Shown here one piece after another: positions 28,331 through 51,266 of a DNA stretch of 64,000 bases. The notes below the pieces were generated by a model. The model saw only the letters and a list, made by a program, of their open reading frames with translations, made no database searches and had not been told where the DNA came from. Within the stretch, counting starts at the first letter, position 1; each line of letters opens with the position of its first letter. A program made the translations under genes and the position numbers. The stretch is from Bacteroidota bacterium. GTDB taxonomy: Bacteria > Bacteroidota > Ignavibacteria > Kryptoniales > JAKASW01. The DNA is taken from contig JAJYIT010000013.1 in the NCBI GenBank assembly GCA_021789975.1, positions 31,864 through 95,863 on the forward strand, in the 5' to 3' direction.

Positions 28331-30883
28331 GTGAAAATTGTAACGGCATTCTTCCTTATCGGAATCTTTTCCTCAGCGGCTACCGCACAACAACTGTTCA
28401 GTGTCTCTGCCTATGAACAGTTCCTGGCGGCCCATCAGGACATGACAAGCTCGCAACTTATGTCGCTCTATTCGGCAGGACTCTTCAAGTCGCAGTCACA
28501 AACGAACTACGCCTCGGCTGCCTACTTCGACAGCATCGATACGAAATACAGTCTCACTCCCGATGAGAAGACTCTCCTGGGTGTGCATGGCTTCATGATT
28601 ACCGAGAGACTCGACAACAGCAACTTCGGCGGTTCGTTCGGCGATGCCTTTCTTGATATCTACCATAAAGACCTGCCGGTCTTCGTCTCGACCGATGCCA
28701 TCCTTCAGTCGATCCACATGTCATACGATCAGATCCTTATGTCCGTAGAAATGCAAACCCTGATCCCCGACGTCAAGAATCTGCTCGCCCAACTTCAAGG
28801 GCAGCTTCCAGCCCTCGCATCAAAGTACGCAGCCTATCCAGCCATGAAGCCGATGCTGAACGACGTAGACGTCTATCTTTCCGTCCCGCGTATGCTTCTC
28901 GGCGCTGCAACGGGTCCCACTTTCAATGAGAACACCGGGACTGTCGATACACTTCTCAGTCTTATAGCAGCGGAACAGCCCGCAAACTATCCGCTCTTTT
29001 CTGCAACTCCGAGGGCAATTGACTTCAGCCAGTTCACTCCGCGCGGTCATTACACGGCAACGCGGGAACTGACGCAGTACTTCCAGGCTATGATGTGGCT
29101 CGGAAAGATCGAGATTTACCTTATACCGCCGGTATCGGCCGGGTTGCCGCCTCAGTCAGATGCCGACATTCAGCGCCAAACTATCGACGCCATGCTGATA
29201 AAAGAGCTGGTCGATGCGAGCAGCTCAGGACCACTCTATGTTGAGATGGACAGCATTCTCACGTTCTTTGTAGGCAAACAGGATAACGTCACTTTTCCCG
29301 AAATCGACTCGGTTGCACAGAACGCTGGAATACAAAACGCGAGCGACCTGCTGAATACACTCCGGTGGAGAGCGTTCCAGGACACACTTTCGACGAAGCC
29401 GTACGCATTTCAAAGTATTCTCTCGCAAATTCTCGGATCAGATCCTTACAGTCCGCAGAGGATCAAGACCGCTTCATCGTTCCTTCTTTTCGGGCAACGG
29501 TTTGTCGTCGACTCATATATAATGGGGAACGTCGTCTATGACAAGATCGTGGTGAACGGCGTGCCGATCAGGCGAATGCTCCCCTCGTCTCTCGATGTAC
29601 TGTTTGCGGAAGGGAATGACGCGGCCGCCCAACTTCTCAAGCCTCAATTGGATGAATACGATTACTCGACCAACCTCGCAGCACTTCGGTATCTTATCGA
29701 TTCTTACAGCCAGAACTTCTGGCAATCATCGATGTACAACCTGTGGTCGAATGCTATCCGGTCATTAAATCCGCCGGCGACTCGCGATTCACTTCCCGCA
29801 TTCATGCAGACCGCCGCATGGTGGCAGGAGAAGATGAATACCCAGCTCGCATCATGGGCTGAGCTGAGACATGACAATCTCCTCTATGCGAAGGAATCAT
29901 ACTCTGGTGCCGTGGTGACCTGTTCGTATCCCGAGAGCTACGTCGAGCCGGATCCGCAATTCTACGACGCAGTCAAGACTTATGCGGCGGTTGCCCAACA
30001 GGAATTTGAGAAGCCTTTTCTTCAGGACTATGCTGCCTCCAGTTACTTTGGATACGTCGAGGCAATTGCCGACACGCTCGGAAATATTTCGCGCGAAGAG
30101 CTTTCGGGTACTCCGCTTAGCCAATCTGAGAGAACCTTTCTGGAAAACATGATGTACACGGTCCACAGCGGTGAATGCGGATCTTTGCCGTATGATGGGT
30201 GGTACCCGAAATTGTTTTATCAGGAGACCTCGGTCGTAACCAGGAATTTTGTGGTGGCAGATGTTCACACCGCGCCGACAGATTCGCTGGGTCATCCGGT
30301 TGGATGGGTGTTCCATGTCGGCACGGGCCCGATAAACCTCGCGGTCGTGATTGCAACTCCGCCCGGTGGTGTGCCAACTGCTTTCGTCGGACCGGTCATG
30401 AGTTACTACGAGCATCTCAGCACGAATTTTCAGCGGCTGACGGATCAGGAATGGCAGAGCATGTACAATGTCTATCCTTCTCTCAGGCCATCATGGGTCA
30501 ACGTCTACCTTGCCGATACCACGGGCACTGCTTTGCCTTCGGGAGCGTCATTGCTGACGGGCATTAATGATAGTCATACCGGGAAGACGTTTCCTGCGAC
30601 GCTGACATTGGATCAGAATTTCCCAAATCCTTTCAATCCCTCTACGATCATTGCGTTCACTATACCGGCTTCTTTGGCTGACACGCATGTTGAGGTCACT
30701 GTCTATAATGACCTGGGACAGGCTGTGAAGACTCTTCTGTCGGAGCAACTTCAGGCGGGTAATTACACGGTGCGCTGGGACGGAACAAATGAAGCTGGTG
30801 CCGCTGCGGCAAGCGGAGTGTATTTCTATCGGCTCCAGGCTGGAGCACTGACTTTTACGAGGAAAATGCTGTTGCTCAGGTGA
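28331..30883 (+). CDS. Large secreted protein, DUF3160-like, with T9SS C-terminal sorting domain
   Basis: GTG start after GGAGGTG, with a signal peptide. FTPRGHYTATRELTQYFQAMMWLG resembles DUF3160 (from memory). C-terminus DQNFPNPFNPSTIIAF...[16 protein letters not shown]. Confidence 0.7.
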   Translation: MKIVTAFFLIGIFSSAATAQQLFSVSAYEQFLAAHQDMTSSQLMSLYSAGLFKSQSQTNYASAAYFDSIDTKYSLTPDEKTLLGVHGFMITERLDNSNFGGSFGDAFLDIYHKDLPVFVSTDAILQSIHMSYDQILMSVEMQTLIPDVKNLLAQLQGQLPALASKYAAYPAMKPMLNDVDVYLSVPRMLLGAATGPTFNENTGTVDTLLSLIAAEQPANYPLFSATPRAIDFSQFTPRGHYTATRELTQYFQAMMWLGKIEIYLIPPVSAGLPPQSDADIQRQTIDAMLIKELVDASSSGPLYVEMDSILTFFVGKQDNVTFPEIDSVAQNAGIQNASDLLNTLRWRAFQDTLSTKPYAFQSILSQILGSDPYSPQRIKTASSFLLFGQRFVVDSYIMGNVVYDKIVVNGVPIRRMLPSSLDVLFAEGNDAAAQLLKPQLDEYDYSTNLAALRYLIDSYSQNFWQSSMYNLWSNAIRSLNPPATRDSLPAFMQTAAWWQEKMNTQLASWAELRHDNLLYAKESYSGAVVTCSYPESYVEPDPQFYDAVKTYAAVAQQEFEKPFLQDYAASSYFGYVEAIADTLGNISREELSGTPLSQSERTFLENMMYTVHSGECGSLPYDGWYPKLFYQETSVVTRNFVVADVHTAPTDSLGHPVGWVFHVGTGPINLAVVIATPPGGVPTAFVGPVMSYYEHLSTNFQRLTDQEWQSMYNVYPSLRPSWVNVYLADTTGTALPSGASLLTGINDSHTGKTFPATLTLDQNFPNPFNPSTIIAFTIPASLADTHVEVTVYNDLGQAVKTLLSEQLQAGNYTVRWDGTNEAGAAAASGVYFYRLQAGALTFTRKMLLLR

Positions 30884-30946
30884 AAATGAAAAGTTGAGAA
30901 ATCCTCGGTACAATCCTTTCGTGAAACTAATTCAACGAGGGATGCG

Positions 30947-32473
30947 ATGAGAACCTTGATTACGATCCTTCTTCTTGCATCGGCTGCCACTGTTCACGCA
31001 CAGGGTGCCTGGGGCAAAATCGATACTGTAACGACCGGTAATTTTGAGGACCTCAATCCACAGCTCGACCATGGAGGATTAGGTGCCCCACGTCCCACAA
31101 CTCCTTTTTATTGGCTTGTCTTCGAAAGATGGAACGGCCCCCAGGGCATGATATGCGCAAAGAAAGTGGAACCGTCGGCCACTGCCATATCACAGGTGCA
31201 ATTCGACTCGACAGTCGAGATTTCACCGCCGACGATAAATCTCCTCCAGGAACATCCGGACATTTGTACCGAGTTTGCCAAGGACACATTCACAGTCGCT
31301 GCGTGGGAGGAGGATGACTCCCGTTCCGCAACTCCTTTCCTTACCTGGAATATTTATTACAGCTATGCTTCAGGGAATGAGACTCAATGGTCAACTCCGC
31401 AGATGCTGATCGGTGCAGGAGGTAGTCCCATTCTCCAGGATGTAATAGTGCGGCCACTTTCCGACTCAACTTTCATCCTCATTTGGAGAAGCGCCGGCGT
31501 CCTTATGTTTTCCACTTTCTCTAACGGGCAAATGTCAAGTCCCGACACCCTTGTTGTCACAAACTACGACAGCACTGAGTTCGATTGCGAGTCTCCATAT
31601 TCCCATCAGCCGACTCTGGCATGGACCGGCAAAGATCCAAGTGGTAGGATCGTTTGTTTCGTGGCACAGGTGACGAGTCTTAGTCCCGTCGTGCTATCTC
31701 AAATGGACACGATCAGCTCCGACGGCAACATCTCAGATCCACGGTTTATTACTTCCGAAGTGAAAGCAATGACATTCAACGTCGAGGATGGAGGAAGATT
31801 CAAGAGTGTATTGGCTTCGTCCGCAAGTTGGTATCAAGAGGATCTTGCCTCCGATTCGCTTTCGGACAATTTGAATGGAACGGGTATTTCGGTCCCGATC
31901 GCAATCGATCAGTCTAAACGACGTCCAAACATGACGGTAAGTTCTCAACCGTTTGGGTGGTTCACGTGGGAGCGGCGGTCCGCAACCGATACTTCATTGG
32001 TGTTTGCGGAATCGTTAGGTCCAAATACTGACACTGTCAGATCGGCCGGCTACAACCGCAATCCTTCGGTCAGCACTTATCTTTTGCAGCAGGGCTTTTA
32101 CCAGGTATTTACATGTGTATGGGAAAGTGACAGGACCGGCGAGTCTCATATTTATGCGAGAGTCGGAGCCGTTGGTGGAGACGCAATAAATGAGCCGGTA
32201 GACCAGGCGCGGGATTTCGTTCTCCAGCAGAACTACCCAAATCCGTTCAACCCGACAACGGCTATCAGCTATGAGCTATCAGATAATGGGTTTGTCACTT
32301 TGAAAGTTTACGATGTGCTTGGAAGGCTGGTCAGAACACTGGTTGATAAGATGGAACAGCCGGGAAGTTACGCGGTTACTTTCAACGCCAGCGGCCTGGC
32401 GAGCGGAATGTATTTTTACAGATTGCAGGCCGGAAGCTACAGTCAGACACACAAGATGATACTTTTGAAATGA
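30947..32473 (+). CDS. Hypothetical secreted protein with T9SS C-terminal sorting domain
   Basis: Signal peptide [19 protein letters not shown]. The cargo region was not recognised. [19 protein letters not shown]...[11 protein letters not shown]. Confidence 0.75.
32228..32473 (+). repeat. CTD-coding module copy
   Basis: gtcactttgaaagtttacgatgtgcttggaaggctggtcagaacactggttgataagatggaacagcc is nearly identical to the 28.0-kb copy. Confidence 0.75.
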
Positions 32474-32575
32474 AATTCTAACGCTTCTCCATGCTTTACG
32501 CGGAGAGCCATTTCAGAAAACCCGGAACCGTTACTCCAAAGAAAGCCGTCAACTTGAGATCATTTGAATCCGGTC

Positions 32576-32605
32576 TTGACTTCTTATCAGATTACCGGCT
32601 ACGTT
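32576..32605 (+). promoter_or_regulatory. Putative promoter TTGACT-N18-TACGTT
   Basis: cTTGACTTct and TACGTT. This position argues for ATG 32636 rather than TTG 32564 as the start of the downstream gene. Confidence 0.3.
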
Positions 32606-32635
32606 AACCGAAAGAATAGGATTGAGGGATGCAGC

Positions 32636-33943
32636 ATGACTTCAACCAATAGCGGATCGGATTACCTGTCAGTTAACCAAAAAGGTTTGTCGATAATCTT
32701 CGGCGTGCTCGTGATCGCCTTTGGGCTGCGCCCTTGTAAGAGTGAGGCCCAGTGGATTAGAGCCACCTTACCGGATAGCGGCGCGGTGGCTACCAGGCTA
32801 ACCGTCCTGGGGAACAAGCTCTTTGTCGGTACTGAAAACGACGGATTGTTTTATACTACAGACGACGGTTCCACATGGGAATCGCCTGACAGCACCTTTC
32901 TCGATTCAGGGCGAGTTTGGTTTCTCAGCGTAGTTGGAACGCAACTGTTCACGCAGGTGGGCAACTTAGCCAATTTTATTTCTTCTTCCGACAGCGGCCG
33001 ATCCTGGCAAATTCGGTACATACCATTCGCGGATGATTGGTTCGGCTTAGTGCAGCACGGCACTCAGTGGTTCACCGTGGTTTCAAATTCGATCATCGTG
33101 TTGAACGACAGCGGCAAATCATGGAAGACGTACAGTTCGTATTTCTATAGCAAGCAACTGAATGTGCTCTCACTTGCGTTTAATGATTCGGAGACTTTTG
33201 TGGGTACCTCGAATGGAATCTATGTATCTGCGGATAGCGGGCAAACCTGGCAATTATCGAATTACAATTACCCAATTTACAATGTGGTATCGATTTCTGT
33301 GGTTGGCTCAACCATTCTTGCATCGACCCAATATAGCGGTGTTTATCGGGCAGACTTGTATCCTCAGTCGAGGACTCGGAACCCATGGGCGAAGTCGGAC
33401 TCCGGAATCACTAATCCATATGTAGTAAACATTATCGAAGCTGGTAATGGGCTTGCCCTTCTTACTTACAATGAGTACCCGTTTTCCAGCGATGTTTTCT
33501 TCTCCACAGATGCGGGTATTTCGTGGGAAGACATAAGCTTTGCACTTGTCGACACCGGAGTCTCTTGCATTGCGGCTTCGGATTCGGATCTCTATGTCGG
33601 CACGTATGGTGGTACAGTTTACCGGCGACCTCTATCCGGCCTGCTCACCGCGGTGAAGCCGATCCCCCAGGTCAGACGGTCTACTTTTTCCCTTTTCCAG
33701 AACTACCCAAACCCATTCAACCCAACTACGGCTATCGGCTATCAGCTATCAGCCATCAGCTATGTTACTCTGAAAGTTTACGATGTACTTGGAAGGCTGG
33801 TGAGAACTCTGGTTAATAAGGTGGAACAGCCCGGAAGTTATTCGATTACCTTTAACGCAAGCGGTCTGGCGAGCGGAGTGTATTTCTACAGAATTGACGC
33901 GGGTGACTATAGTCAAACTCACAAACTCATGGTTTTGAAATGA
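32636..33943 (+). CDS. Beta-propeller-like repeat protein (degenerate Asp-box units) with T9SS C-terminal sorting domain
   Basis: TTDDGSTWES, SSDSGRSWQ, LNDSGKSWKT, SADSGQTWQL and STDAGISWED motifs. [19 protein letters not shown]...SGVYFYRIDAG. Confidence 0.75.
   Translation: MTSTNSGSDYLSVNQKGLSIIFGVLVIAFGLRPCKSEAQWIRATLPDSGAVATRLTVLGNKLFVGTENDGLFYTTDDGSTWESPDSTFLDSGRVWFLSVVGTQLFTQVGNLANFISSSDSGRSWQIRYIPFADDWFGLVQHGTQWFTVVSNSIIVLNDSGKSWKTYSSYFYSKQLNVLSLAFNDSETFVGTSNGIYVSADSGQTWQLSNYNYPIYNVVSISVVGSTILASTQYSGVYRADLYPQSRTRNPWAKSDSGITNPYVVNIIEAGNGLALLTYNEYPFSSDVFFSTDAGISWEDISFALVDTGVSCIAASDSDLYVGTYGGTVYRRPLSGLLTAVKPIPQVRRSTFSLFQNYPNPFNPTTAIGYQLSAISYVTLKVYDVLGRLVRTLVNKVEQPGSYSITFNASGLASGVYFYRIDAGDYSQTHKLMVLK
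33698..33943 (+). repeat. CTD-coding module copy
   Basis: Shares ggcgagcggagtgtatttctacag and ctgaaagtttacgatgt with the other copies. Confidence 0.7.
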
Positions 33944-42139: not shown

Positions 42140-45100
42140 ATGTCTGATAAAATAGAGATGCAGGAAACTCCGTTGGACCACTATGCGTCGACAGAATCGG
42201 GGCAGGAAAAGCTGGAGATCGAAATTGAGTATGATCAGTGCATAAACTACGCGATTCAGCAAAATGCTGTTCCAGTGGTGAAGAGAATCAAGCTATTGAA
42301 TGCGACCCCTTTACCGCTTCTCAATGTCCTAGTAAAGATTACAGGCGATCCGGCGTTCTGTGATCCATGGGAATTGAGAATTGCCGTCTTGGAACCAGAA
42401 CGAGAATCTCTGCTGAAGGATGTTGACATCAATCTCTCCGCAACTTTTCTCGCGGGGCTTCGAGAGAAGAGCACGGGTCAGATCAAAATTAACGTTTCGT
42501 CTGATGACCTTCCGTTGCGAACCGCTAATTATCCAATCGACCTCCTCGCGTATGATGAGTGGCCGGGAATTCGCACAATACCGGAGATCCTTGCAGCTTT
42601 CGTCATGCCTAATCACCCTTCTATAGAGCCAATCCTGAAGGATGCAGCATCGCTCCTCAAGACATGGACTGAGGATAGCTCACTGAGCGGATATCAGACC
42701 GGCAATCCAAAACGCGCATGGCTTTCAGTTGCAGCAATCTACACGGCACTTAGCAAGCTCGGCATTTCCTATATCAACCCTCCTGCAAGCTTTGAGAGAA
42801 GTGGTCAGAAGGTGCGGACACCGGATAGAATTCTGGAGACACGACTCGGAACATGTTTTGACTTATCTCTTCTATGTGTCTCATGTATTGAGGCGGCTGG
42901 TCTAAATCCGATTGTGGTCTTACACAATGGACACGCTTACCCCGGTGCCTGGTTGAAAAACGAAACCTTTTCTCCCGCGGCCATTGATGATATCCAAACC
43001 CTTCGTAAGAGGAGTGAACTCGGAGAAATTGTTTTTTTTGAATCTACTTCCCTCACGAGTGACATCCCGAGAGAATTCAACCAAGCGGTATTGGACGCTG
43101 CACCTAGATTGGAGATGGATGACGAATTCATATTAGGTATCGACATAAAGTCTGCGAGAAGAGAGCGCATACGTCCGATTCCGCTGCGTGCTCATGGAGT
43201 CGAGGCGTTTACACATCAAGAAGAGAAGCAAGATAACGGAGGCATCGACAGTGTACCCCAAGTTCCTCTATCAATCGTGCAGGAGGAAACTGCGAAAGAC
43301 AAGACCGCAATCTCCCCGCAATCAAGAGTGGACCAGTGGAAACGAAGACTCCTGGACCTTTCTCTGCGCAACCGGCTTCTTAACTTCAGAGACACTCAAA
43401 AGACGGTGCCTATCCTGTGCCCTGACCTGCCTGCTCTGGAGGATGCTCTTGCGGCCGGTGAGGAATTCAAGTTCGCTCCAGGGATAAAAGTCATGTCGGA
43501 AAGTGATCCGCGCAGCGCCGCTGTGCACCACACGCGTACCGGTGAAGATGCTCAGGAAGAGTTTCTGAAGGAGGAGATGGCAAGTAGAAGGCTGCATACG
43601 ACTCTCTCGGAAGCGGAGCAGAACAAACGCTTGCTTGAAACGTATCGCTCCGCTCGCACTGCTGAAGAAGAGGGTGGTGCAAACATATGTTACCTCGCGC
43701 TCGGGTTTCTCGAATGGACTCAACGAGACGCAGGGGACCAGGTCTACTCAGCACCCATACTTCTTTTGCCGGTTGAGCTGACGAGAAAATCGATTCAGCA
43801 AGGATTCCATCTTCAGGAGCACGACGACGAACCCCGTATCAATATCACGCTACTCCAAATGCTGGAAAAGGATTTCAATCTTCAGGTAACGGGCCTCGAC
43901 CCGCTTCCACGTGACCAATCCGGCATCGACGTGCAATCGGTACTGCAGACATTTCGCACTGCCGTCCGTGACATAAAAGGCTGGGAAGTAAAAAACGTGG
44001 TTCGCCTCGGTTTGTTTTCCTTCACCAAGTATCTCATGTGGAAGGACCTTGAAGATCGCACTGAGGATTTGATGAGGAATAGTGTGGTGGAGCATCTGAT
44101 CAAGAACCCGGAAACTCCGTATCCGTTCCAGGGGGAAAAGCCGGATGCTGACAGAATCGATGATGAGCTGCGACCGGCTAATACTTTTTGCCCACGGGAC
44201 GCGGACTCCTCCCAACTTGCATCAGTACTTGCCGCGTCAAGAGGTATTAGCTTTGTGATGGAAGGTCCTCCCGGAACTGGGAAGTCGCAGACGATAACAA
44301 ACATCATTGCACAATCTCTGGCTGAAGGCAAAACCGTTCTCTTCGTAGCCGAAAAGATGGCGGCACTGAACGTGGTTTACGATAGATTGCGCGGTGTCGG
44401 ATTGGCGCCCTACTGTCTGGAACTTCACTCCAGCAAAGCTAAGAAAACGGACGTGCTCCAGCAACTGGCAGCACGAGCATCTGCAGTTTCCAATACTGAC
44501 GTCGATGAGTGGGAACAGTTAGGAAGAAGTTTGGGATCGTTGCGTACAGAACTAAATCAGTACGCGGCACTCCTTCACAGAGTTTACCCGAACGGACTTA
44601 CCGCATTTAGTGTGACTTCGTCTCTTGTTGGAATGCGAGATGAACCTGTTGTCCCGATCAGCTGGCAGAGTGTCGATATACATACCCGGGCCGACCTTCA
44701 GAATCTAAAAGGCGCAGTTGACGAGCTTGCCACAACCGCACGTCCGTGTGGATCGATCGCCGATAATAGATGGTTCGGTTTTGAGCACACCGAGTGGAGC
44801 CCTGGCTGGGCACAAGAATTGGAATCGCAAGTAGATACATTGGGAAAGTGCATAATCAAACTTGAGGAATCCATTCGCGAACTAGCGCCTCGGTTTGGAA
44901 TCGAAGGAAGAGGGTTTACGTTCAGAAGCTTGAAGCGCATAGAAGCCTTGGGTGCTGTGATGCTTCGGTCTCCCGGTGTTTCCAAGCCAATGCTTGATAT
45001 TGGCGATTGGGAAGACTTCAGACACCGAGTAGCAGAAGTTGGCGTCGTCGGAAGGAAGAGGGATTCACTGCGGACAAAGTTGTTCTCCGAATACTCCACC

Positions 45101-48100
45101 GAAATCGCGAACGCCGATGTAAGTAATCTGAGAGATACTTGGATGAGCGCCAGTGAATCCTGGTGGGCGCTCAGATGGATCAGGCGCCACAAAGTTAAAA
45201 CGGCATTGAAAGCACTCCACAAGGTGCGAAAAGTGCCCGCCGATGAGACGATCGCTGGGATACTCTCAGACGTTGAAACTCTCCAAGAGCTGCATAGCCA
45301 TGTCGCGTCAGTAAGTGGATCCGTCGGAGGTCCGCTTGGCAGGTTCTGGCGGGGAGGAGATCCCGATTGGGAAGAAGTTGACAAAATGTGTGAGTGGGTG
45401 AATTCGTTCCGGGAAGGAGTCTATTCGGTAGCGGACGGTGACGCTCAGAAGTCATCCATCATGTGCCATCAGCTGTCTGAGACCGTTACTACTCTCAACG
45501 ATCAATTGAAGCTGGATGGTCAGATTGGGAATTCAATCATCTCGTTCACGCAGTCGCTTGCAGAGTTTGAGTCAGCGCGTGAAGCGTTGTCCAGGACAGG
45601 CGGCGTAAACGATGCGAAGGTTTGGGGGGACGGTGCCGCTGTTGACCTTATTTCGGTGAGCAAGAAACTGGTGGATCAATGGAAGCCCGCGGTTGGCTCA
45701 CTTCGCTACTGGTGCGCGTGGCAATCGGCACGGTCAAATGCAAAGAAGTTGGGCTTAGCCGCGATTGTAGATGCTATTGAATCGGGGAGTATCAGGACAG
45801 AAGGTCTGGAGCGAGTGTTCACCAAGAGTTACTATCTGTGGTGGCTCAATTCGCTTACCGATCAAGAACCTTTGCTACGCCAGTTTCTGCGCGAAGTACA
45901 CGAAAAGAAAATCGAGCGATTCCGGAACACTGATGCTGCATTCGTGACGAAAACAAAAGGTGCCGTTACAGCAAAACTATCTGAGGAACGGCCTGATCCG
46001 TCATCGACGCGTGCAAGCAGCACATCTGAAATGGGGGTGCTGACAAGGGAGCTTCGGAGGGTGAGACGCCTCATGCCGGTTCGCACACTTCTGTCAAAGA
46101 TTCCTAATTTACTTCCTCGTCTCAAACCGTGTCTCTTGATGAGTCCTCTATCTGTTTCTCAGTACCTTCAAGCCGGACGGCAGCCTTTCGACGTAGTAAT
46201 CTTCGATGAGGCCTCCCAGATACCGGTGTGGGATGCAGTTGGAGCAATAGCAAGGGGCAAGCAGGTAATCATTGCAGGTGACCCCAAACAGTTGCCCCCC
46301 ACAAATTTCTTTGTGAAGGCAGAAGAAGACGATGAGATCATTGAGGAGGATTTGAAGGTTGAAGACCTGGAGAGCGTTCTTGACGAATGCATGGGAGCTG
46401 GCCTGCCACCCATGCGTCTTAACTGGCATTACCGAAGCCGTCACGAGAGCCTCATCGCCTTTAGCAATTCCCAATATTACCAAAATTCACTTCAGACTTT
46501 TCCATCTGCAGTAACCAATGACAGCGCCGTTTCTTTCCGCCATGTTCCGAGCGGAGTGTACGATAAAGGGAAAACAAGAACTAACCGTGAAGAAGCGAGA
46601 GCCATAGTATCGGAGGTAATCGAGCGGCTAACCGATCCAACGACCTGCAACGAAACGATGGGAATCGTAACGTTCAATCTAGCTCAGCAGAGACTGATCG
46701 AAGATATGTTAGAGAGCGAAAGGTCGCTACATCCGGAGATCGAAAAATACTTTTCTCCAGAGGTTGAGGAGCCAGTGTTTGTGAAAAACTTGGAGAACGT
46801 CCAGGGTGATGAAAGAGACGTAATTTTCTTTTCGGTCTGTTATGGACGTGATCTTAGCGGAAAGGTATCTCTCAATTTTGGACCCATGAATAAAGACGGA
46901 GGTCAAAGGCGTCTGAACGTTGCGATCACCAGGGCCCGAAACGCTGTTCGAGTTTTCTCGTCAATAACCGGTGATGAAATTGATCTCCGCAGAACTCAAG
47001 CACGAGGTGTTGGCGATTTGAAGCTCTTCCTCGAATACGCTCAGCGAGGTCCCTCAATACTGGCTCCGTCCGTTTCATCGGAGGCCGGCGCAGAGTTCGG
47101 TTCGGTGTTTGAGCAGCAAGTCCATGATGCGCTGGCGGAACGGGGCTGGCAGTCGAACTTACAAGTCGGTTGTTCAGGTTTCCGTGTAGACCTCGGCATC
47201 ATCGACAAGCAGAACCCGGATCGGTATCTGGCAGGAATTCAATGCGACGGAGGAAACTACCACAGTGCGAAATCAGCTCGGGATCGGGACCGCCTTCGCC
47301 AAAGCGTGCTTCAAGGCCTTGGCTGGAAACTGATCCGCATCTGGTCCACCGATTGGTGGCTTGAACCGCAGCGAGAACTTGATCGGGTTGACGGGCTACT
47401 GCACGCAATAGAAGCTGGGCCTTCACAATGTGTAGAGAACGGGAATCAGAATCGAAAGGACCCGGATCCTGACTCCACTAAGATCATGGCTGCCCCTGCG
47501 GTCGGAAAACCTGAAACTGCAATGTCTCCTCACGGACGGCAAAATTCTGAGCCGACATACACTCACTATATAGCGTTCTCGAAGACCCCAAAGGATGGCA
47601 GTCAACTCAACTTCTACGACTCGTACCAGAACTCAGCCATTCGGGAAACTATAGTCAAAACTATTGCTTTGGAGGGGCCAATAAGTCTCGATCTGCTCGT
47701 TCACCGAGTAGGGATGCTATGGGGATTTTCCCGCGCTGGGAATGGCGTCCGCGGACGGGTCGTAAGCCTTATTCTAGAGGGGACAGTGAACCTGACACGA
47801 CACAACGGCATGATCTGGTATTGGCCGTTGAACCTGGGTCCCGAGCGTTACACCGATTTTAGAGTTTCCGTCCCCGGCGAGTCTGACGCTCGTGAGATTG
47901 CAGACATTGCACCAGAGGAAATCGGTAACGCCGCTTTGAGCATCCTGAAGCAACACATTAGCATAGAGCGAGATGAACTAGCCAGAGAGGTATATCAGCT
48001 TTTCGGATACAGCCGTCTTAGTGTGGCAGGCAAAGCTCACGCTGATTATGGTATTCATTTTCTTATCCTGAGAGGTTTTGCGAGGATGGATGGCAACATG

Positions 48101-48118
48101 GTTGTTCTAGAGCAATAG
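42140..48118 (+). CDS. Giant 1992-aa multidomain protein: transglutaminase-like N-terminal region, DUF4011, Upf1-like SF1 helicase (AAA_11/AAA_12), DUF559/MTES_1575-type PD-(D/E)xK nuclease-like domain, DUF3320
   Basis: A single uninterrupted ORF. Motifs: GTCFD...GHAYPGAW; WKRRLLDLSLRNRLLNF and ICYLALGFLEW..APILLLPVEL (DUF4011); Walker A GPPGTGKS; VVIFDEASQ; IIAGDPKQLPP; HYRSRHESLI; GIVTFN; VQGDERDVIFFS; RRLNVAITRAR; FRVDLGII..YLAGIQCDGGNYHSAKSARDRDRLRQSVLQGLGWKLIRIWSTDWW; and a DUF3320-like tail. Confidence 0.9.
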   Translation: MSDKIEMQETPLDHYASTESGQEKLEIEIEYDQCINYAIQQNAVPVVKRIKLLNATPLPLLNVLVKITGDPAFCDPWELRIAVLEPERESLLKDVDINLSATFLAGLREKSTGQIKINVSSDDLPLRTANYPIDLLAYDEWPGIRTIPEILAAFVMPNHPSIEPILKDAASLLKTWTEDSSLSGYQTGNPKRAWLSVAAIYTALSKLGISYINPPASFERSGQKVRTPDRILETRLGTCFDLSLLCVSCIEAAGLNPIVVLHNGHAYPGAWLKNETFSPAAIDDIQTLRKRSELGEIVFFESTSLTSDIPREFNQAVLDAAPRLEMDDEFILGIDIKSARRERIRPIPLRAHGVEAFTHQEEKQDNGGIDSVPQVPLSIVQEETAKDKTAISPQSRVDQWKRRLLDLSLRNRLLNFRDTQKTVPILCPDLPALEDALAAGEEFKFAPGIKVMSESDPRSAAVHHTRTGEDAQEEFLKEEMASRRLHTTLSEAEQNKRLLETYRSARTAEEEGGANICYLALGFLEWTQRDAGDQVYSAPILLLPVELTRKSIQQGFHLQEHDDEPRINITLLQMLEKDFNLQVTGLDPLPRDQSGIDVQSVLQTFRTAVRDIKGWEVKNVVRLGLFSFTKYLMWKDLEDRTEDLMRNSVVEHLIKNPETPYPFQGEKPDADRIDDELRPANTFCPRDADSSQLASVLAASRGISFVMEGPPGTGKSQTITNIIAQSLAEGKTVLFVAEKMAALNVVYDRLRGVGLAPYCLELHSSKAKKTDVLQQLAARASAVSNTDVDEWEQLGRSLGSLRTELNQYAALLHRVYPNGLTAFSVTSSLVGMRDEPVVPISWQSVDIHTRADLQNLKGAVDELATTARPCGSIADNRWFGFEHTEWSPGWAQELESQVDTLGKCIIKLEESIRELAPRFGIEGRGFTFRSLKRIEALGAVMLRSPGVSKPMLDIGDWEDFRHRVAEVGVVGRKRDSLRTKLFSEYSTEIANADVSNLRDTWMSASESWWALRWIRRHKVKTALKALHKVRKVPADETIAGILSDVETLQELHSHVASVSGSVGGPLGRFWRGGDPDWEEVDKMCEWVNSFREGVYSVADGDAQKSSIMCHQLSETVTTLNDQLKLDGQIGNSIISFTQSLAEFESAREALSRTGGVNDAKVWGDGAAVDLISVSKKLVDQWKPAVGSLRYWCAWQSARSNAKKLGLAAIVDAIESGSIRTEGLERVFTKSYYLWWLNSLTDQEPLLRQFLREVHEKKIERFRNTDAAFVTKTKGAVTAKLSEERPDPSSTRASSTSEMGVLTRELRRVRRLMPVRTLLSKIPNLLPRLKPCLLMSPLSVSQYLQAGRQPFDVVIFDEASQIPVWDAVGAIARGKQVIIAGDPKQLPPTNFFVKAEEDDEIIEEDLKVEDLESVLDECMGAGLPPMRLNWHYRSRHESLIAFSNSQYYQNSLQTFPSAVTNDSAVSFRHVPSGVYDKGKTRTNREEARAIVSEVIERLTDPTTCNETMGIVTFNLAQQRLIEDMLESERSLHPEIEKYFSPEVEEPVFVKNLENVQGDERDVIFFSVCYGRDLSGKVSLNFGPMNKDGGQRRLNVAITRARNAVRVFSSITGDEIDLRRTQARGVGDLKLFLEYAQRGPSILAPSVSSEAGAEFGSVFEQQVHDALAERGWQSNLQVGCSGFRVDLGIIDKQNPDRYLAGIQCDGGNYHSAKSARDRDRLRQSVLQGLGWKLIRIWSTDWWLEPQRELDRVDGLLHAIEAGPSQCVENGNQNRKDPDPDSTKIMAAPAVGKPETAMSPHGRQNSEPTYTHYIAFSKTPKDGSQLNFYDSYQNSAIRETIVKTIALEGPISLDLLVHRVGMLWGFSRAGNGVRGRVVSLILEGTVNLTRHNGMIWYWPLNLGPERYTDFRVSVPGESDAREIADIAPEEIGNAALSILKQHISIERDELAREVYQLFGYSRLSVAGKAHADYGIHFLILRGFARMDGNMVVLEQ
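42812..43039 (+). other. Domain: transglutaminase-like cysteine-protease-fold core (aa ~225-300)
   Basis: RLGTCFDLSLLCVSCIEAAGLNPIVVLHNGHAYPGAWL. Cys239 (TGT 42854-42856) and His265 are spaced as in the transglutaminase-core Cys-His pair, with Asp283/284 as a candidate third residue. Confidence 0.45.
43322..44059 (+). other. Domain: DUF4011-like region (aa ~395-640)
   Basis: DQWKRRLLDLSLRNRLLNFRDTQKTVPI and ANICYLALGFLEWTQ...YSAPILLLPVELTR. Confidence 0.6.
44192..46969 (+). other. Domain: SF1 (Upf1/DNA2-like) helicase core with ~640-aa insertion between Walker A and motif II
   Basis: Walker A at 44264-44287 (K715). DEAS begins at 46205 (D1356). Motifs III-VI lie downstream. Confidence 0.85.
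47093..47365 (+). other. Domain: DUF559/REase_MTES_1575-like restriction-endonuclease fold
   Basis: FEQQVHDAL..FRVD(1684)LGII..IQ(1701)CDGGNYHS..RDRDRLRQ..GWKLIRIWSTDWW. Confidence 0.65.
47597..48109 (+). other. Domain: DUF3320-like C-terminal region
   Basis: IRETIVKTIALEGPISLDLLVHRVGMLWGFSRAGNGVRGRV and ELAREVYQLFGYSRLS. Confidence 0.5.
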
Positions 48119-48396
48119 GGAATCGTAAGATGCCTATTCTCGGATTCAGTATCGTTGCTCGGCTAATTCAGAGTCGGAAGGGGAGTGAGCTTGTACCACC
48201 ACTCTGTACCTTCGGAACTGCGAGAGATTACTCACGAGCTTTACGGTTTCGTCGCTTCCGCCGGCAGGTTCGGTTCCGCGCGACTTTCATGGCGACCGAC
48301 CGCGACGGCTACTACCAGGATTACGTCGGGGCAGGTTTTTTGTGTCGCTGGGCTGTGTGCAATGCTCGCTAGATTAGATTTTAGAGGCTGACTCGG

Positions 48397-48879
48397 ATGA
48401 GATTAAGATCAATCTCTACGATACTTCATGAAGTCTTTGACAGGGCTCCACATTGGCTTGCGCACCGAAAGAGCTGGTGGAACTTGCTCCTCATCCCCTT
48501 GGGATTAGGAGGTGTCGGTGTCATCACTTCTGGGCTCTTTCATTTTATGTGGTGGGTGCATCTGTTGTTTTACCCTGTCCATGCCGGCCATCAGGGCGAA
48601 TTTTGGAATTCAGGGATTTCACTTAGTGCTTTCGTCCCCAGTTTATTATTCGTTGTCCCCCCTTTTTTTGCTTCAATGCCTCTTGCAGCCCTTATGAGCA
48701 ATGGTATCCTTTGGTTGGTGCCAACGATTAGAGAGGTATTCGAAAAAGAGGCCAAAGCTTTACCGCGAACTTCTTTTGGGGGAACGATGGAAAATGTTCT
48801 CAATACAACTGTGGTACTGGTGCCGATTTGTATGCTGCTCAGTTTTCTTGGCGCAGTGAGTTTGAGCAGCTTGAAATAG
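48397..48879 (+). CDS. Hypothetical integral membrane protein (about 4 TM)
   Basis: 160 aa with four hydrophobic segments. No recognised family. Confidence 0.55.
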   Translation: MRLRSISTILHEVFDRAPHWLAHRKSWWNLLLIPLGLGGVGVITSGLFHFMWWVHLLFYPVHAGHQGEFWNSGISLSAFVPSLLFVVPPFFASMPLAALMSNGILWLVPTIREVFEKEAKALPRTSFGGTMENVLNTTVVLVPICMLLSFLGAVSLSSLK

Positions 48880-49061
48880 GCCTCGATCGCGCTGCCCATA
48901 ACACGGCAAATAACGATATTGGAAGAAGTCATGACTAATACAATCCTCATTGAATACTTCTGTTCGGTCAAAGGAGATTGTCATGCTCACGAGAGTTTTG
49001 TGGCGTTTGCAGAGACGTTATACGAAACCACGCGAACTCAATTTTGAGAAAGGAGACAAGA

Positions 49062-49703
49062 ATGAGGTTGACCAAGTACATGGTGGTGCTTTATTGTGTC
49101 ACTTTGATTTCGGCCACACTGGCGTTCGCTCAAAAATCGCAAGACACGTTACGGGCTACCGTGGGCAACCCGCAACTTCAGAAGGAACTTCTTGACATGG
49201 AGGTCAACGACCAAAATGTCGAACACCTCTTCGTAGACACGATGTCCCAACATCCCAACGATACTCTTGGCATTATCGCTTTTATTAAGAAGATGGATTC
49301 CGTATTCAATCGCAATACAGCGGCTCTAAAAAAAATACTCCAACGCTACGGCTGGCCGGGCATCGATTTGGTTGGTCGAGAGGGCGCTGAGGCAGCATTC
49401 CTTATTGTCCAACATTCAACTGATACTCTCTTCCAAAGAGCTTGTTTGCCACTGCTCAGAACTGCATGCGAACATGGTCAAGCATCCGGCGATAATCTCG
49501 CTTTGCTCACCGACCGAGTCCTCGTGCGTGACGGAAGACCTCAACTTTATGGCACTCAGACGAAGATTGTTAATGGGAAGATAGTCCTGGAGACAATTGC
49601 CGACAGCGCAGACGTGGACGCTCGCCGTGCAAAACTCGGTCTAATGCCTCTATCTAAATACCTGGAGTTGTTGCGAGAGACAATTCACCTTAAGGACAAA
49701 TAA
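49062..49703 (+). CDS. Secreted DUF6624-like protein
   Basis: AGGAG RBS and signal peptide MRLTKYMVVLYCVTLISATLAFAQ. YGWPGIDLVGREGAEAAFLIVQHS...LLTDRVLVRDGRPQLYGTQ...RRAKLGLMPLSKY resembles DUF6624 (from memory). Confidence 0.55.
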   Translation: MRLTKYMVVLYCVTLISATLAFAQKSQDTLRATVGNPQLQKELLDMEVNDQNVEHLFVDTMSQHPNDTLGIIAFIKKMDSVFNRNTAALKKILQRYGWPGIDLVGREGAEAAFLIVQHSTDTLFQRACLPLLRTACEHGQASGDNLALLTDRVLVRDGRPQLYGTQTKIVNGKIVLETIADSADVDARRAKLGLMPLSKYLELLRETIHLKDK

Positions 49704-49973
49704 TATGTGGCTACCCCGATACTCCACGTGCCGTCCGCCAACATCCAAGAACAAGACGTTTCCCGACATAGCACATGTCGAGACAGGCTCAATTGGAAGC
49801 TCGCTTCATTGCCTTTGCCCGCGGTCTCGATGCTTCTTCGGTCACCGGCCGCTCTTCACATTCTTCGATAGATGTTTCGCAACTTTTGTAGCGGGCGTCG
49901 GCGCCGACTTCTTTTTGACGGACATTAATTGGAATTGTGTTTGTGCAGAACAATCGCAGAAACGAGAAATGCA

Positions 49974-51266
49974 ATGCTGAAGAATCTTCTGATTGGAATT
50001 CTAGTCCTCTCAAGTTCCGTGCTACTATATGCTCAGCAGCCGTCTTTTGCGGACACCTTAGCCACATATTTTAATGAAGTCAAAACAGCCACGACGGAAA
50101 ACAAAAATCTATGGAACTACGATACCTATGCCCCAATTTTGTTGGTACAGCCAGATACGCGGGAAGTCTTTGCGAACAGCCCCGACAGTGCAGGTTCACT
50201 GAAAAAAGAGGGAACGATATTTACCGGAAAACTGCCCGACTCAATCACAATTGCGAACACTTCGATTCGTTGGAGTGGCGTCACCTGGGCGATGGTGATG
50301 CTTCCCCTTCCCGAAAATAAATACGAGAGGCTGGACCTTCTAACTCATGAACTCTTTCACGTGGCGCAGCCTCATTTGGGTTTCACACCTTACAATCCCG
50401 AAAACAACCAGCTCGACCAAAAAGACGGAAGAGTATATTTGAGGCTCGAATTGGAGGCTCTGAAAGCTGCTCTGCTTACGGATTCGCATGCCGAGATGGG
50501 AAAGCATATAGCCGACGCCCTGACCTTTCGAATGTACCGCTATCAGATCTATCCCATTGCGGACTCCACCGAAAATCTACTTGAATTAAACGAAGGGCTT
50601 GCTGAATTCACCGGAGTCATGATGAGCGGAAGAAACAGACAGCAAATGCGCGATCACTTTGTAGAGAGCATGAATGAGTTTTTGAAGAATCCGACTTTTG
50701 TGAGATCCTTTGCCTACCAGACAATCCCGATGTATGGTTACCTGCTTCATGAAATAGAACCCGGCTGGAACAAGGACATTACAGATAGGACAAACCTTAC
50801 GGCATATTTCCTGCGGGCTTTTCACATTAAACTACCGCACGACTTGAAAAGCGCAGCGGCAAAGATATCCGGCGAGTATAATGGTGCAAGAATTATTGCT
50901 GAAGAAACTGAGCGGGCAGCAAGAATCGACAAGCTCAAAGCAGAATACAGACGGCTATTTTTCGGGCTGCCGCACCTTACTATCCATCTCCACAAGATGG
51001 GTATTGCCTTTGACCCGCGCAATATTATGCCTCTCGAAAACAAAGGAACCGTTTGCCCGTATCTTAGGGTAACGGACGATTGGGGAATGTTGATCTCGAC
51101 AAAAGCCGCACTTATGAGTCCGACATGGAACGAGGTAACGGTCACTGCTCCGACTCAGATAGGGAAAGAAAAAGTCGTCGGTGATGGTTGGACTATAGAC
51201 TTGAAGGAAGGCTATGTCGTGCAGAAAGACACAGCAACGAATAGTTATATATTGAAAAAGAAATAG
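49974..51266 (+). CDS. Secreted putative gluzincin-type metallopeptidase (HExxH)
   Basis: Signal peptide MLKNLLIGILVLSSSVLLYAQ. HELFH at 50346-50360 and a downstream LNEGLAEFTG, a possible third-ligand Glu motif. Confidence 0.55.
   Translation: MLKNLLIGILVLSSSVLLYAQQPSFADTLATYFNEVKTATTENKNLWNYDTYAPILLVQPDTREVFANSPDSAGSLKKEGTIFTGKLPDSITIANTSIRWSGVTWAMVMLPLPENKYERLDLLTHELFHVAQPHLGFTPYNPENNQLDQKDGRVYLRLELEALKAALLTDSHAEMGKHIADALTFRMYRYQIYPIADSTENLLELNEGLAEFTGVMMSGRNRQQMRDHFVESMNEFLKNPTFVRSFAYQTIPMYGYLLHEIEPGWNKDITDRTNLTAYFLRAFHIKLPHDLKSAAAKISGEYNGARIIAEETERAARIDKLKAEYRRLFFGLPHLTIHLHKMGIAFDPRNIMPLENKGTVCPYLRVTDDWGMLISTKAALMSPTWNEVTVTAPTQIGKEKVVGDGWTIDLKEGYVVQKDTATNSYILKKK

What the first reader, a model, noticed from the sequence alone, without database searches (positions are those of the whole stretch)
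42812..43039. Transglutaminase-like Cys-His core embedded in the N-terminus of the helicase-nuclease
The segment RLGTCFDLSLLCVSCIEAAGLNPIVVLHNGHAYPGAWL resembles the G-x-C-x-D...G-H-A-W layout of transglutaminase-core / papain-like cysteine protease folds. The candidate residues are Cys239, His265 and Asp283/284.

A protease or peptide-modifying module on a helicase-nuclease would suggest either a sensor or effector step, or autoprocessing. The preceding ~220 aa (INYAIQQNAVPVVKRIKLLNATPLPL...) look like beta-rich repeat modules of unknown function.

I have a vague memory of similar N-termini in other DUF4011 proteins, so this may define a conserved subfamily rather than a unique fusion.
Basis: inference. 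Interest (0 to 1): 0.6.

Follow-up and report, generated by a model that had tools for sequence, protein, structure and literature searches.

The report
Transglutaminase-fold thiol domain on ProA helicase-nuclease
The flagged stretch is a real, strongly conserved transglutaminase/papain-type cysteine-enzyme domain at the front of a 1992-residue helicase-nuclease of the curated anti-phage family ProA; the gene is an ordinary member of that family, but what this domain does is not known from anything I could find.

Summary
Window 42812-43039 encodes aa 225-300 of one ORF (42140-48118, +, 1992 aa), with C239, H265 and D283/D284 as stated. Cys and His are invariant or nearly so in 84 database homologues and invariant in 64 full-length orthologues from many phyla. 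AlphaFold models are confident (pLDDT 90.9 and 95.9). C239 opens a helix and H265 opens a strand. Foldseek returns almost only transglutaminase-fold proteins: PNGase, putative cysteine proteases 3kd4 and 3isr, LapG, PeiP, Rad4/XPC, menin. About half of the homologues give weak Pfam hits to transglutaminase-like families.

The protein scores as an equivalog of NCBIfam "anti-phage protein ProA" over the whole model. Its nearest named relative, Hhe, starts directly at DUF4011, so the ~345-aa module (beta-sandwich plus transglutaminase-like domain) is a ProA feature that Hhe lacks. The fusion is not unique: 3695 cluster representatives match, there is no conserved partner gene, and homologues sit on plasmids.

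- The third catalytic residue is unresolved (D283/284 at canonical spacing; E301 better conserved).
- The upstream region is one beta-sandwich plus helices, not repeats.

Function (peptidase or isopeptidase acting in sensing or regulation) is inferred, not shown. This window's nuclease motif carries Gln where most orthologues have Glu.

The parts
42140..48118 (+). ProA-family gene (1992 aa): beta-sandwich, transglutaminase-like domain, DUF4011, SF1 helicase, MTES_1575 nuclease, DUF3320
   Evidence: ORF. NCBIfam NF058533 'anti-phage protein ProA' equivalog scores 2195 bits against a cut-off of 1500, aa 36-1959 matching model positions 1-1903. Pfam domains. The exact protein is found on 5 contigs of other assemblies.
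42212..42544 (+). N-terminal Ig-like beta-sandwich (aa 25-135)
   Evidence: AF2 model with pLDDT 90.9 has strands 25-31, 47-54, 60-70, 77-84, 89-93, 111-121 and 124-135. Foldseek hits of ~115-120 columns to TG2/FXIII/protein 4.2, UNC119, PDE6D and glycosidase Ig domains vanish when only aa 140-350 are searched. Mean identity to orthologues is 33%.
42581..43174 (+). Transglutaminase-like (papain-type) thiol-enzyme domain (aa 148-345)
   Evidence: Domain model pLDDT 95.9, pTM 0.93. Foldseek against the PDB returns transglutaminase-fold hits; against BFVD it includes phage psiM2 pseudomurein endoisopeptidase. Of 84 homologues, 40 hit PF04473 and 19 hit PF01841 weakly. Mean identity to orthologues is 50%, as high as for DUF4011 and the nuclease.
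42854..42856 (+). Cys239, candidate nucleophile (motif G-T-C-x-D)
   Evidence: C in 82/83 and 65/65. It is the first residue of helix 239-252 in the model. Codon TGT.
42932..42934 (+). His265, candidate general base (motif G-H-A)
   Evidence: H in 84/84 and 65/65. It is the first residue of strand 265-271. C-to-H spacing is 26, against 27 in mouse PNGase (sequence verified).
42986..42991 (+). Asp283/Asp284, candidate third triad residue at canonical spacing
   Evidence: H-to-D spacing is 18/19, against 17 in PNGase and 23 in TG2. The pair follows the short strand 281-282. At least one of the two is acidic in all 65 orthologues, but not in 4 of 84 remote homologues.
43040..43042 (+). Glu301, alternative third residue or additional active-site acid (consensus f-E-T-T, resembling the canonical l-D-P-T)
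   Evidence: E57/D8 of 65. E68/D9/N6 of 84. It follows strand 297-299.
43175..43345 (+). Poorly conserved flexible linker (aa 346-402) after the conserved IRPxP motif
   Evidence: Mean identity 21%. pLDDT 61-70. Conservation map.
43346..43864 (+). DUF4011 domain (aa 403-575)
   Evidence: Pfam PF13195, E 4.9e-50. Hhe begins here: query 395-447 aligns to Hhe 22-76.
44165..46960 (+). Upf1-like SF1 helicase (aa ~676-1607) split by a ~530-aa variable insertion (801-1330); Walker A 709-716, DEAS 1356-1359, motif VI 1590-1600
   Evidence: Pfam AAA_11/AAA_12/AAA_30. PDB sequence hits to Sen1, Upf1 and IGHMBP2. Motifs are invariant in 65 orthologues and the insertion is 26% identical.
47108..47389 (+). 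MTES_1575 / Vsr-like PD-(D/E)xK nuclease domain (aa 1657-1750), with Gln1701 in place of the usual Glu
   Evidence: Pfam PF18741, E 1.7e-33. The IQCDG motif reads IECDG in 56/65 orthologues and in Hhe. Codon CAA 47240-47242.
47612..47752 (+). DUF3320 (aa 1825-1871)
   Evidence: Pfam PF11784, E 5.8e-11.

Best explanation
The gene is an orthologue of the single-gene anti-phage protein ProA, a DUF4011 / Upf1-like SF1 helicase / MTES_1575 nuclease / DUF3320 protein.

Its first ~345 residues form a two-domain module: an Ig-like beta-sandwich followed by a transglutaminase-fold (papain-type) domain. That domain keeps a complete thiol active centre: Cys239 at a helix N-terminus, His265 on the following strand, and an acidic third residue (Asp283/284 or Glu301).

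- Shown here: the fold, the conservation, the family assignment, and that Hhe lacks this module.
- Inferred: the domain is catalytically active. Most likely it works as a cysteine peptidase, isopeptidase or amidase on a protein substrate, as most bacterial transglutaminase-like domains are annotated.
- Also inferred: it serves as an accessory sensing, licensing or anti-inhibitor step tethered by a flexible linker to the DNA-translocating helicase-nuclease, rather than being needed for the core DNA chemistry. Hhe defends without such a module.

The substrate is unknown.
For: Family:
- NF058533 ProA equivalog, 2195 bits against a 1500 cut-off, full-length coverage.

Fold:
- AF2 pLDDT 90.9 and 95.9.
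- Foldseek top hits are transglutaminase-fold proteins with probability 0.95-1.0: 3kd4_A, 3esw_A, 2f4m_A, 3isr_A, 8z4f_A, 4fgo and Rad4.
- 3kd4 and TG2 align over 385-392 columns of the two-domain model.

Sequence:
- 40/84 homologues hit PF04473 (best E 4.6e-5; P0005 at 21.7 bits exceeds the 20.5 cut-off) and 19/84 hit PF01841.

Active centre:
- C239 82/83 and 65/65; H265 84/84 and 65/65; D241 and E251 invariant; E301 always D/E/N bar one.
- C-to-H spacing 26 and H-to-D spacing 18, against 27 and 17 in PNGase.

Selection:
- The domain is 50% identical across orthologues, equal to DUF4011 and the nuclease, while the linker is 21%.

Accessory status:
- Hhe (1911 aa) starts at DUF4011 and has no match to aa 1-394. 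PDC-S37 matches only from aa 394.
- Hhe is reported as an active single-gene defence.

Single-gene system:
- No conserved neighbour in 65 loci.

Breadth:
- 3695 representatives match, and the top 150 all have the same placement of the domain.
- 71 plasmid records cover at least 80% of the protein.
Against: - No activity was or could be tested.
- The query itself gives no Pfam hit even at E<=10. A profile of the family finds no PDB chain by sequence.
- The transglutaminase fold also hosts non-enzymes (Rad4/XPC, menin) and non-peptidase chemistries (cross-linking, deamidation, acyl transfer). 'Peptidase' is therefore a prior, not a result.
- I could not find the paper that defines ProA, so its authors may already have shown something different.
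Confidence: 0.6

Rival explanations
1. Autoprocessing zymogen. The thiol domain cleaves ProA itself, in cis or in trans between protomers, within or near the linker. Cleavage would release or unlock the helicase-nuclease once infection is sensed.
For: The domain is joined to DUF4011 by a low-confidence, poorly conserved linker (pLDDT 61-70; 21% identity). That linker is preceded by a strongly conserved IRPxP motif (P346 65/65), which could be a processing or docking site.
Against: No conserved motif lies inside the linker itself. The short ORFs carrying only the N-module are frameshifted or IS-interrupted genes, not evidence of separable parts. Nothing here tests cleavage.
Confidence: 0.12
2. 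Non-peptidase chemistry on the same fold. The domain could be a protein cross-linking transglutaminase, a Gln/Asn deamidase or PNGase-like amidase, or a NAT-like acyltransferase that modifies a phage or host protein.
For: PNGase is among the best structural matches (3esw, 2f4m, 1x3w). Arylamine N-acetyltransferase and TglA also appear. The Cys-His-acid centre is common to all these chemistries (established knowledge of the transglutaminase/papain superfamily).
Against: The closest bacterial matches (3kd4, 3isr, LapG, PeiP, CPR-C4) are annotated or shown as peptidases or isopeptidases. No cofactor or acyl-donor binding feature was identified. The comparison cannot discriminate between these chemistries.
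Confidence: 0.15
3. Catalytically silent scaffold. The domain would bind DNA or a partner protein, like the transglutaminase-homology domain of Rad4/XPC or menin, with the Cys and His kept for structural reasons.
For: Rad4/XPC and menin recur in the Foldseek list. Rad4 uses this domain in a DNA-damage sensor, which would fit a helicase-nuclease that surveys DNA (established knowledge).
Against: Rad4/XPC has lost the triad (established knowledge). Here C, H, the C-x-D aspartate and an acidic third residue are kept in essentially all of 148 sequences spanning many phyla. That pattern is typical of active enzymes.
Confidence: 0.12
4. Chance resemblance: a G-x-C ... G-H-A-W string with no structural meaning.
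For: The query alone has no Pfam hit.
Against: Invariance of the residues, a confident fold prediction, a coherent list of structural neighbours, and recurrent weak Pfam hits in 40/84 homologues.
Confidence: 0.01

Closest known systems
ProA (NCBIfam NF058533, 'anti-phage protein ProA', equivalog)
   Same: Full-length, above-threshold match (2195 bits against 1500; model positions 1-1903 against aa 36-1959), so the N-terminal module is part of the family model. The same architecture is seen in 64 orthologues and in the top 150 of 3695 representatives.
   Different: None in architecture. This copy, like 8 orthologues (7 Bacteroidota, 1 Bacillota MAG), lacks the nuclease-motif Glu (Q1701). I found no paper describing ProA or its N-terminal domain in the library searched.
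Hhe (Gao_Hhe; NCBIfam NF042953, PADLOC PDLC02194)
   Same: DUF4011, Upf1-like SF1 helicase with a long insertion, and MTES_1575/Vsr-like nuclease. Identity is 30-35% over aa 484-937 and 1115-1758. It is a single-gene defence, and a nuclease-motif mutation is reported to abolish its activity.
   Different: Hhe starts at DUF4011 (its residue 22 aligns to query residue 395) and has no beta-sandwich or transglutaminase-like module. The query scores 866 bits against the Hhe cut-off of 2000, so it is not Hhe.
PADLOC candidate PDC-S37
   Same: Strong match of 1364 bits over aa 394-1969.
   Different: The profile begins at DUF4011 (profile position 7 = aa 394), so the N-module is not part of that model.
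Bacterial transglutaminase-like cysteine peptidases (Pfam PF01841 / PF04473; PDB 3kd4, 3isr; LapG; PeiP/PeiW)
   Same: Fold, Cys at a helix N-terminus, His on the next strand, G-x-C-x-D and G-H-A motifs, and near-canonical spacing. 3kd4 also shares the arrangement of an N-terminal beta domain followed by the core.
   Different: Sequence similarity is sub-threshold for the query. There is a ~15-residue helix between the D283/284 position and the E301 strand. The domain is fused to a helicase-nuclease instead of standing alone or being secreted.
Rad4/XPC transglutaminase-homology domain
   Same: The same fold within a protein that inspects DNA.
   Different: Rad4/XPC lacks the catalytic residues (established knowledge), whereas ProA keeps them.

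Membership tests
ProA (NCBIfam NF058533) | Whole-protein score above the curated equivalog cut-off, with end-to-end model coverage | tested here: met
   2195.4 bits against 1500; aa 36-1959 against model 1-1903
ProA (NCBIfam NF058533) | Architecture: N-module, DUF4011, SF1 helicase, MTES_1575 nuclease, DUF3320 | tested here: met
   The same layout is seen in orthologues.
ProA (NCBIfam NF058533) | Anti-phage activity | not testable with these tools
   It rests only on the family name. No primary paper was found.
Hhe (NCBIfam NF042953) | Whole-protein score above the cut-off | tested here: not met
   865.8 bits against 2000. Hhe lacks the N-module.
Transglutaminase-like / papain-type fold superfamily | Three-dimensional fold | tested here: met
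   The model has pLDDT 95.9. Foldseek neighbours are nearly all of this fold, probability 0.95-1.0, E 1.5e-3 to 7e-2.
Transglutaminase-like / papain-type fold superfamily | Nucleophilic Cys at the N-terminus of a helix and His at the start of the next-but-one strand, both conserved | tested here: met
   DSSP of the model shows helix 239-252 and strand 265-271. Conservation.
Transglutaminase-like / papain-type fold superfamily | Third residue (Asp/Asn/Glu) hydrogen-bonded to the His | tested here: inconclusive
   There are two candidates: D283/284 (canonical spacing) and E301 (better conserved).
Pfam PF01841 Transglut_core / PF04473 DUF553 | Score above the gathering threshold | tested here: not met
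   The query has no hit at E<=10. Family consensus sequences score 16-18 bits against cut-offs of 20.5-23. One homologue (P0005) reaches 21.7 against 20.5 for PF04473. 40/84 and 19/84 homologues give weak hits.
Transglutaminase-like cysteine peptidases | Thiol-dependent peptide or isopeptide hydrolysis | not testable with these tools
   Needs biochemistry.

The most novel reading that the evidence does not exclude
In the clade to which this window belongs, the nuclease-motif Glu is replaced: Gln here, and Leu in 8 orthologues (7 Bacteroidota, 1 Bacillota MAG). That Glu is probably the residue whose mutation kills Hhe defence. The helicase motifs and the thiol centre stay invariant. ProA could therefore act there as a helicase-guided protease or protein-modifying enzyme. 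It would translocate on phage DNA and cleave or modify DNA-bound phage proteins (end-protectors, terminal proteins or nuclease inhibitors), making the thiol domain the real effector rather than an accessory.
Probability: 0.08. Interest if true: 0.8.

Novelty: new member of a known kind. Interest (0 to 1): 0.4.

Why it matters
ProA-type proteins are widespread: 3695 50%-identity clusters, many phyla, and plasmids. Yet Pfam and PADLOC leave their first ~400 residues unannotated.

Assigning that region to a transglutaminase-fold thiol enzyme with an intact active centre gives a concrete handle on what separates ProA from Hhe. The C239 and H265 point mutants, activity-based probes and substrate trapping are all direct tests.

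It would also add a cysteine-enzyme step to the repertoire of helicase-nuclease defences, which are otherwise explained by DNA chemistry alone. For this particular window the result is mainly a better annotation of an otherwise ordinary family member.

Tried and rejected
- Pfam on aa 1-400 of the query gave no hit even at E<=10.
- A profile of 84 homologues against PDB sequences gave no hit at E<=10.
- Foldseek with the two-domain model was dominated by Ig-like beta-sandwich matches. Its TG2/FXIII hits turned out to come from the beta-sandwich, not the core, because they disappear with the domain-only model.
- To map the third catalytic residue I tried hhalign of the family alignment against verified PNGase and TG2 core sequences. 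Only His-to-His aligned for TG2 and nothing useful for PNGase. MAFFT misaligned TG2 with PNGase.
- Regex searches for canonical transglutaminase cores in the window and 82 loci, to build a comparison profile, found none.
- All ten literature searches failed to find a paper naming ProA or PDC-S37, or linking a transglutaminase-like domain to a helicase defence system. Four papers checked by text search had nothing relevant.
- A conserved partner gene was rejected: no neighbour recurs in more than 9 of 65 loci.
- A defence island or foreign-DNA signal in the window was not seen. GC is flat at 0.48-0.53, there are no tRNAs, and the neighbours are housekeeping, secreted or of no known family.
- Stand-alone N-module proteins as evidence for a separable part were rejected. 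They are frameshifted or IS-split ProA genes, except for a remote 25%-identical family (P0120).
Full report
**Observation.** It lies in a single 1992-codon ORF, 42140-48118. With that start, Cys239, His265 and Asp283/284 are numbered correctly; the codons are TGT 42854-56, CAC 42932-34 and GAT GAT 42986-91.
- DUF4011, aa 403-575
- Upf1-like SF1 helicase (AAA_11/AAA_12; Walker A at 709-716, DEAS at 1356-1359)
- MTES_1575 restriction-endonuclease-like domain, aa 1657-1750
- DUF3320, aa 1825-1871

**Is it more than chance?** A search with aa 1-400 found 128 homologues.
- In an alignment of 84 of them (25-67% identity), H265, D241 and E251 are invariant and C239 is Cys in 82 of 83.
- An independent set came from a scan of one genome per GTDB species. 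It gave 377 confirmed loci, of which 80 were kept. They span Verrucomicrobiota, Planctomycetota, Desulfobacterota, Armatimonadota, Bacteroidota, Acidobacteriota, Bacillota, Actinomycetota and one archaeal MAG.
- In the 64 loci with an ORF of at least 1750 aa, C239, D241, E251 and H265 are 65/65 including the query.
- The domain is 50% identical on average across these orthologues. That equals DUF4011 (49%) and the nuclease (51%), whereas the following linker is 21%. The segment is therefore under strong purifying selection.

**Fold.**
- AlphaFold2 with the 84-sequence alignment gave a confident model of aa 1-400 (pLDDT 90.9, pTM 0.89). It shows a beta-sandwich (strands between 25 and 135) followed by an alpha/beta domain (148-345) and a low-confidence linker.
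- C239 is the first residue of helix 239-252 and H265 the first residue of strand 265-271. That is the hallmark geometry of papain and transglutaminase-type enzymes.
- A domain-only model (aa 140-350) reached pLDDT 95.9.
- Foldseek against the PDB returned a coherent list: transglutaminase-like axonemal proteins, the putative protease 3kd4, yeast and mouse peptide:N-glycanase, the putative cysteine protease 3isr, pseudomurein endoisopeptidase PeiP, LapG, CPR-C4 protease, TglA, Rad4/XPC, menin and arylamine N-acetyltransferase.
- E-values are modest (1.5e-3 to about 0.07 for the first fifteen) and TM-scores are 0.3-0.4, but probabilities are 0.95-1.0 and the list is almost purely one superfamily.
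- The BFVD viral library again returned the phage psiM2 pseudomurein endoisopeptidase.
- With the two-domain model, the many TG2, factor XIII and protein 4.2 hits of ~120 columns came from the beta-sandwich, since they vanish with the domain-only query. 3kd4 and open-state TG2 aligned over 385-392 columns, which suggests the same 'beta domain then core' layout.

**Sequence-level support.** The query alone gives no Pfam hit, and the family profile finds no PDB chain by sequence. When each of the 84 homologues is scanned, however, 40 hit PF04473 (transglutaminase-like DUF553, best E 4.6e-5), 19 hit PF01841 and 2 hit PF13369. The matches always cover the Cys helix and His strand, and one homologue exceeds the PF04473 gathering score.

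**The third catalytic residue.**
- For D283/284: using verified PNGase and TG2 core sequences, the C-to-H spacing is 26 here and 27 in PNGase. The H-to-D spacing is 18/19 here, 17 in PNGase and 23 in TG2. D283/284 follows a two-residue strand (281-282) that would pair with the His strand. This is the canonical position.
- Against D283/284: D283 is only 38/84 conserved, D284 is D/E/N in 81/84, and four remote homologues have no acid at either position.
- For E301: it follows strand 297-299 in a motif f-E-T-T reminiscent of the canonical l-D-P-T. It is E/D in 65/65 and D/E/N in 83/84.
- I could not access coordinates, and profile alignment to single canonical sequences was uninformative. This point stays open.

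**What the protein is.**
- NCBIfam calls it an equivalog of 'anti-phage protein ProA' (NF058533). The score is 2195 bits against a cut-off of 1500, and model positions 1-1903 align to aa 36-1959. The N-terminal module is therefore part of the curated family.
- The next best family, Hhe, scores 866 against a cut-off of 2000.
- PADLOC's candidate PDC-S37 matches only from aa 394.
- An annotated Klebsiella plasmid hhe gene (1911 aa) aligns to the query only from DUF4011 onward (Hhe residue 22 = query 395). It has no similarity to aa 1-394.
- So the beta-sandwich plus transglutaminase-like module is present in ProA and absent from Hhe and from the PDC-S37 model.
- A phmmer scan of 1.84 billion cluster representatives with the 211-aa domain found 3695 hits (2161 at E<=1e-10). 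All of the best 150 carry the domain near residues 120-350, and the complete ones are 1.9-2.3 kaa long.
- Seventy-one plasmid records cover at least 80% of the query. Those listed are mostly annotated only as 'DUF3320 domain-containing protein'.

**Context.**
- No neighbouring gene is conserved across 65 loci, consistent with a single-gene system.
- In the window, the listed flanking genes with a Pfam hit (FMN-binding protein, thioredoxin-like protein, DUF6624, T9SS cargo proteins, glycoside hydrolases) are not defence genes; several others have no hit. GC is flat and there are no tRNAs.
- The T9SS sorting domains point to a host in the FCB group.
- Short ORFs that looked like stand-alone N-modules are an IS66-split ProA beside a prophage integrase or frameshifted genes.
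- The only true stand-alone relative seen is a remote (25%) family in a two-gene operon.

**Mechanism.**
- Shown: fold, conserved Cys/His/acid centre, tethering by a variable linker, absence from Hhe, and absence of partner genes.
- Inferred: the domain is an active thiol enzyme.
- By analogy with its nearest bacterial structural neighbours, it is most likely a peptidase, isopeptidase or amidase acting on a protein.
- Hhe defends without it, so I take it to be an accessory sensing, licensing or anti-inhibitor step rather than part of the DNA chemistry.
- Rivals are autoprocessing, another chemistry on the same fold (cross-linking, deamidation, acyl transfer), and a silent Rad4-like scaffold. 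The last is disfavoured by the near-invariant catalytic residues.

**A side observation raises the stakes slightly.**
- The nuclease motif reads IQCDG here (Q1701), where 56 of 65 orthologues and Hhe read IECDG. Eight orthologues (seven Bacteroidota, one Bacillota MAG) have Leu.
- A preprint reports that Hhe E1731A abolishes defence. The motif Glu is residue 1727 in the 1911-aa annotation, so the equivalence is probable but not verified.
- In all nine variants the helicase motifs and the thiol centre are intact.

**Novelty and score.** The gene is a new member of a known, curated family. Assigning its N-terminal 345 residues to a beta-sandwich plus transglutaminase-fold thiol domain is absent from the Pfam and PADLOC results here, and from every paper I could search, but I could not find the ProA source paper. 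It is a useful, testable annotation, not a surprise of kind. Interest 0.4.

Noticed in passing
window 47240-47242 (aa Q1701), nuclease domain 47108-47389: The PD-(D/E)xK-type motif reads IQCDG, where 56/65 ProA orthologues and Hhe read IECDG. Eight orthologues (7 Bacteroidota, 1 Bacillota MAG) have Leu there. All nine keep D1684, D1703, the helicase motifs and the thiol centre. A preprint reports that Hhe E1731A abolishes defence; this is probably the same Glu (residue 1727 in the 1911-aa annotation), but the numbering offset was not verified.
   Followed up: partly
window 44540-46129 (aa 801-1330): A ~530-residue insertion sits between helicase motifs I and II. It is only 26% identical among orthologues and has no Pfam match. 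Hhe has an insertion at the same place.
   Followed up: no
L087 8001-16436 (Eoetvoesiella caeni): A ProA gene is split by an IS66 element into a 357-aa N-module ORF and a 1648-aa remainder. It lies directly beside a prophage integrase and phage structural genes.
   Followed up: partly
L084 6775-9155 (soil MAG; also L085, L086): A remote (25% identity) stand-alone homologue of the beta-sandwich plus transglutaminase-like module (P0120, 384 aa; weak PF04473 hit). Its gene overlaps by 4 bases an upstream 409-aa gene of unknown function that has a weak CHAT (caspase-like) hit, E 0.013. No helicase is nearby.
   Followed up: partly
L064 7656-14401 (Methanomassiliicoccaceae MAG): A ProA homologue occurs in an archaeal MAG, broken into three reading frames with a ~1 kb gap. 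It is either a pseudogene or an assembly problem. L004, L015, L048 and L060 also carry frameshifted copies.
   Followed up: partly
window 28331-33943: A DUF3160 protein with a CHU_C/T9SS tail and two proteins with Por_Secre_tail sorting domains. The host therefore probably belongs to the FCB group (Bacteroidota and relatives).
   Followed up: no
window 48130-51266: Downstream of ProA are ORFs of 80, 160 and 445 aa with no Pfam match and a DUF6624 protein (48978-49703). The 160-aa ORF and the DUF6624 gene recur next to the identical ProA on other contigs of the same organism, but nothing here recurs next to ProA in other species.
   Followed up: partly
L089 156-7204 (E. coli SCEC020022 chromosome): The hhe gene is interrupted near its 5' end by an IS3 family element. 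hhe-like DNA is present in 301 of 5426 complete E. coli genomes.
   Followed up: no
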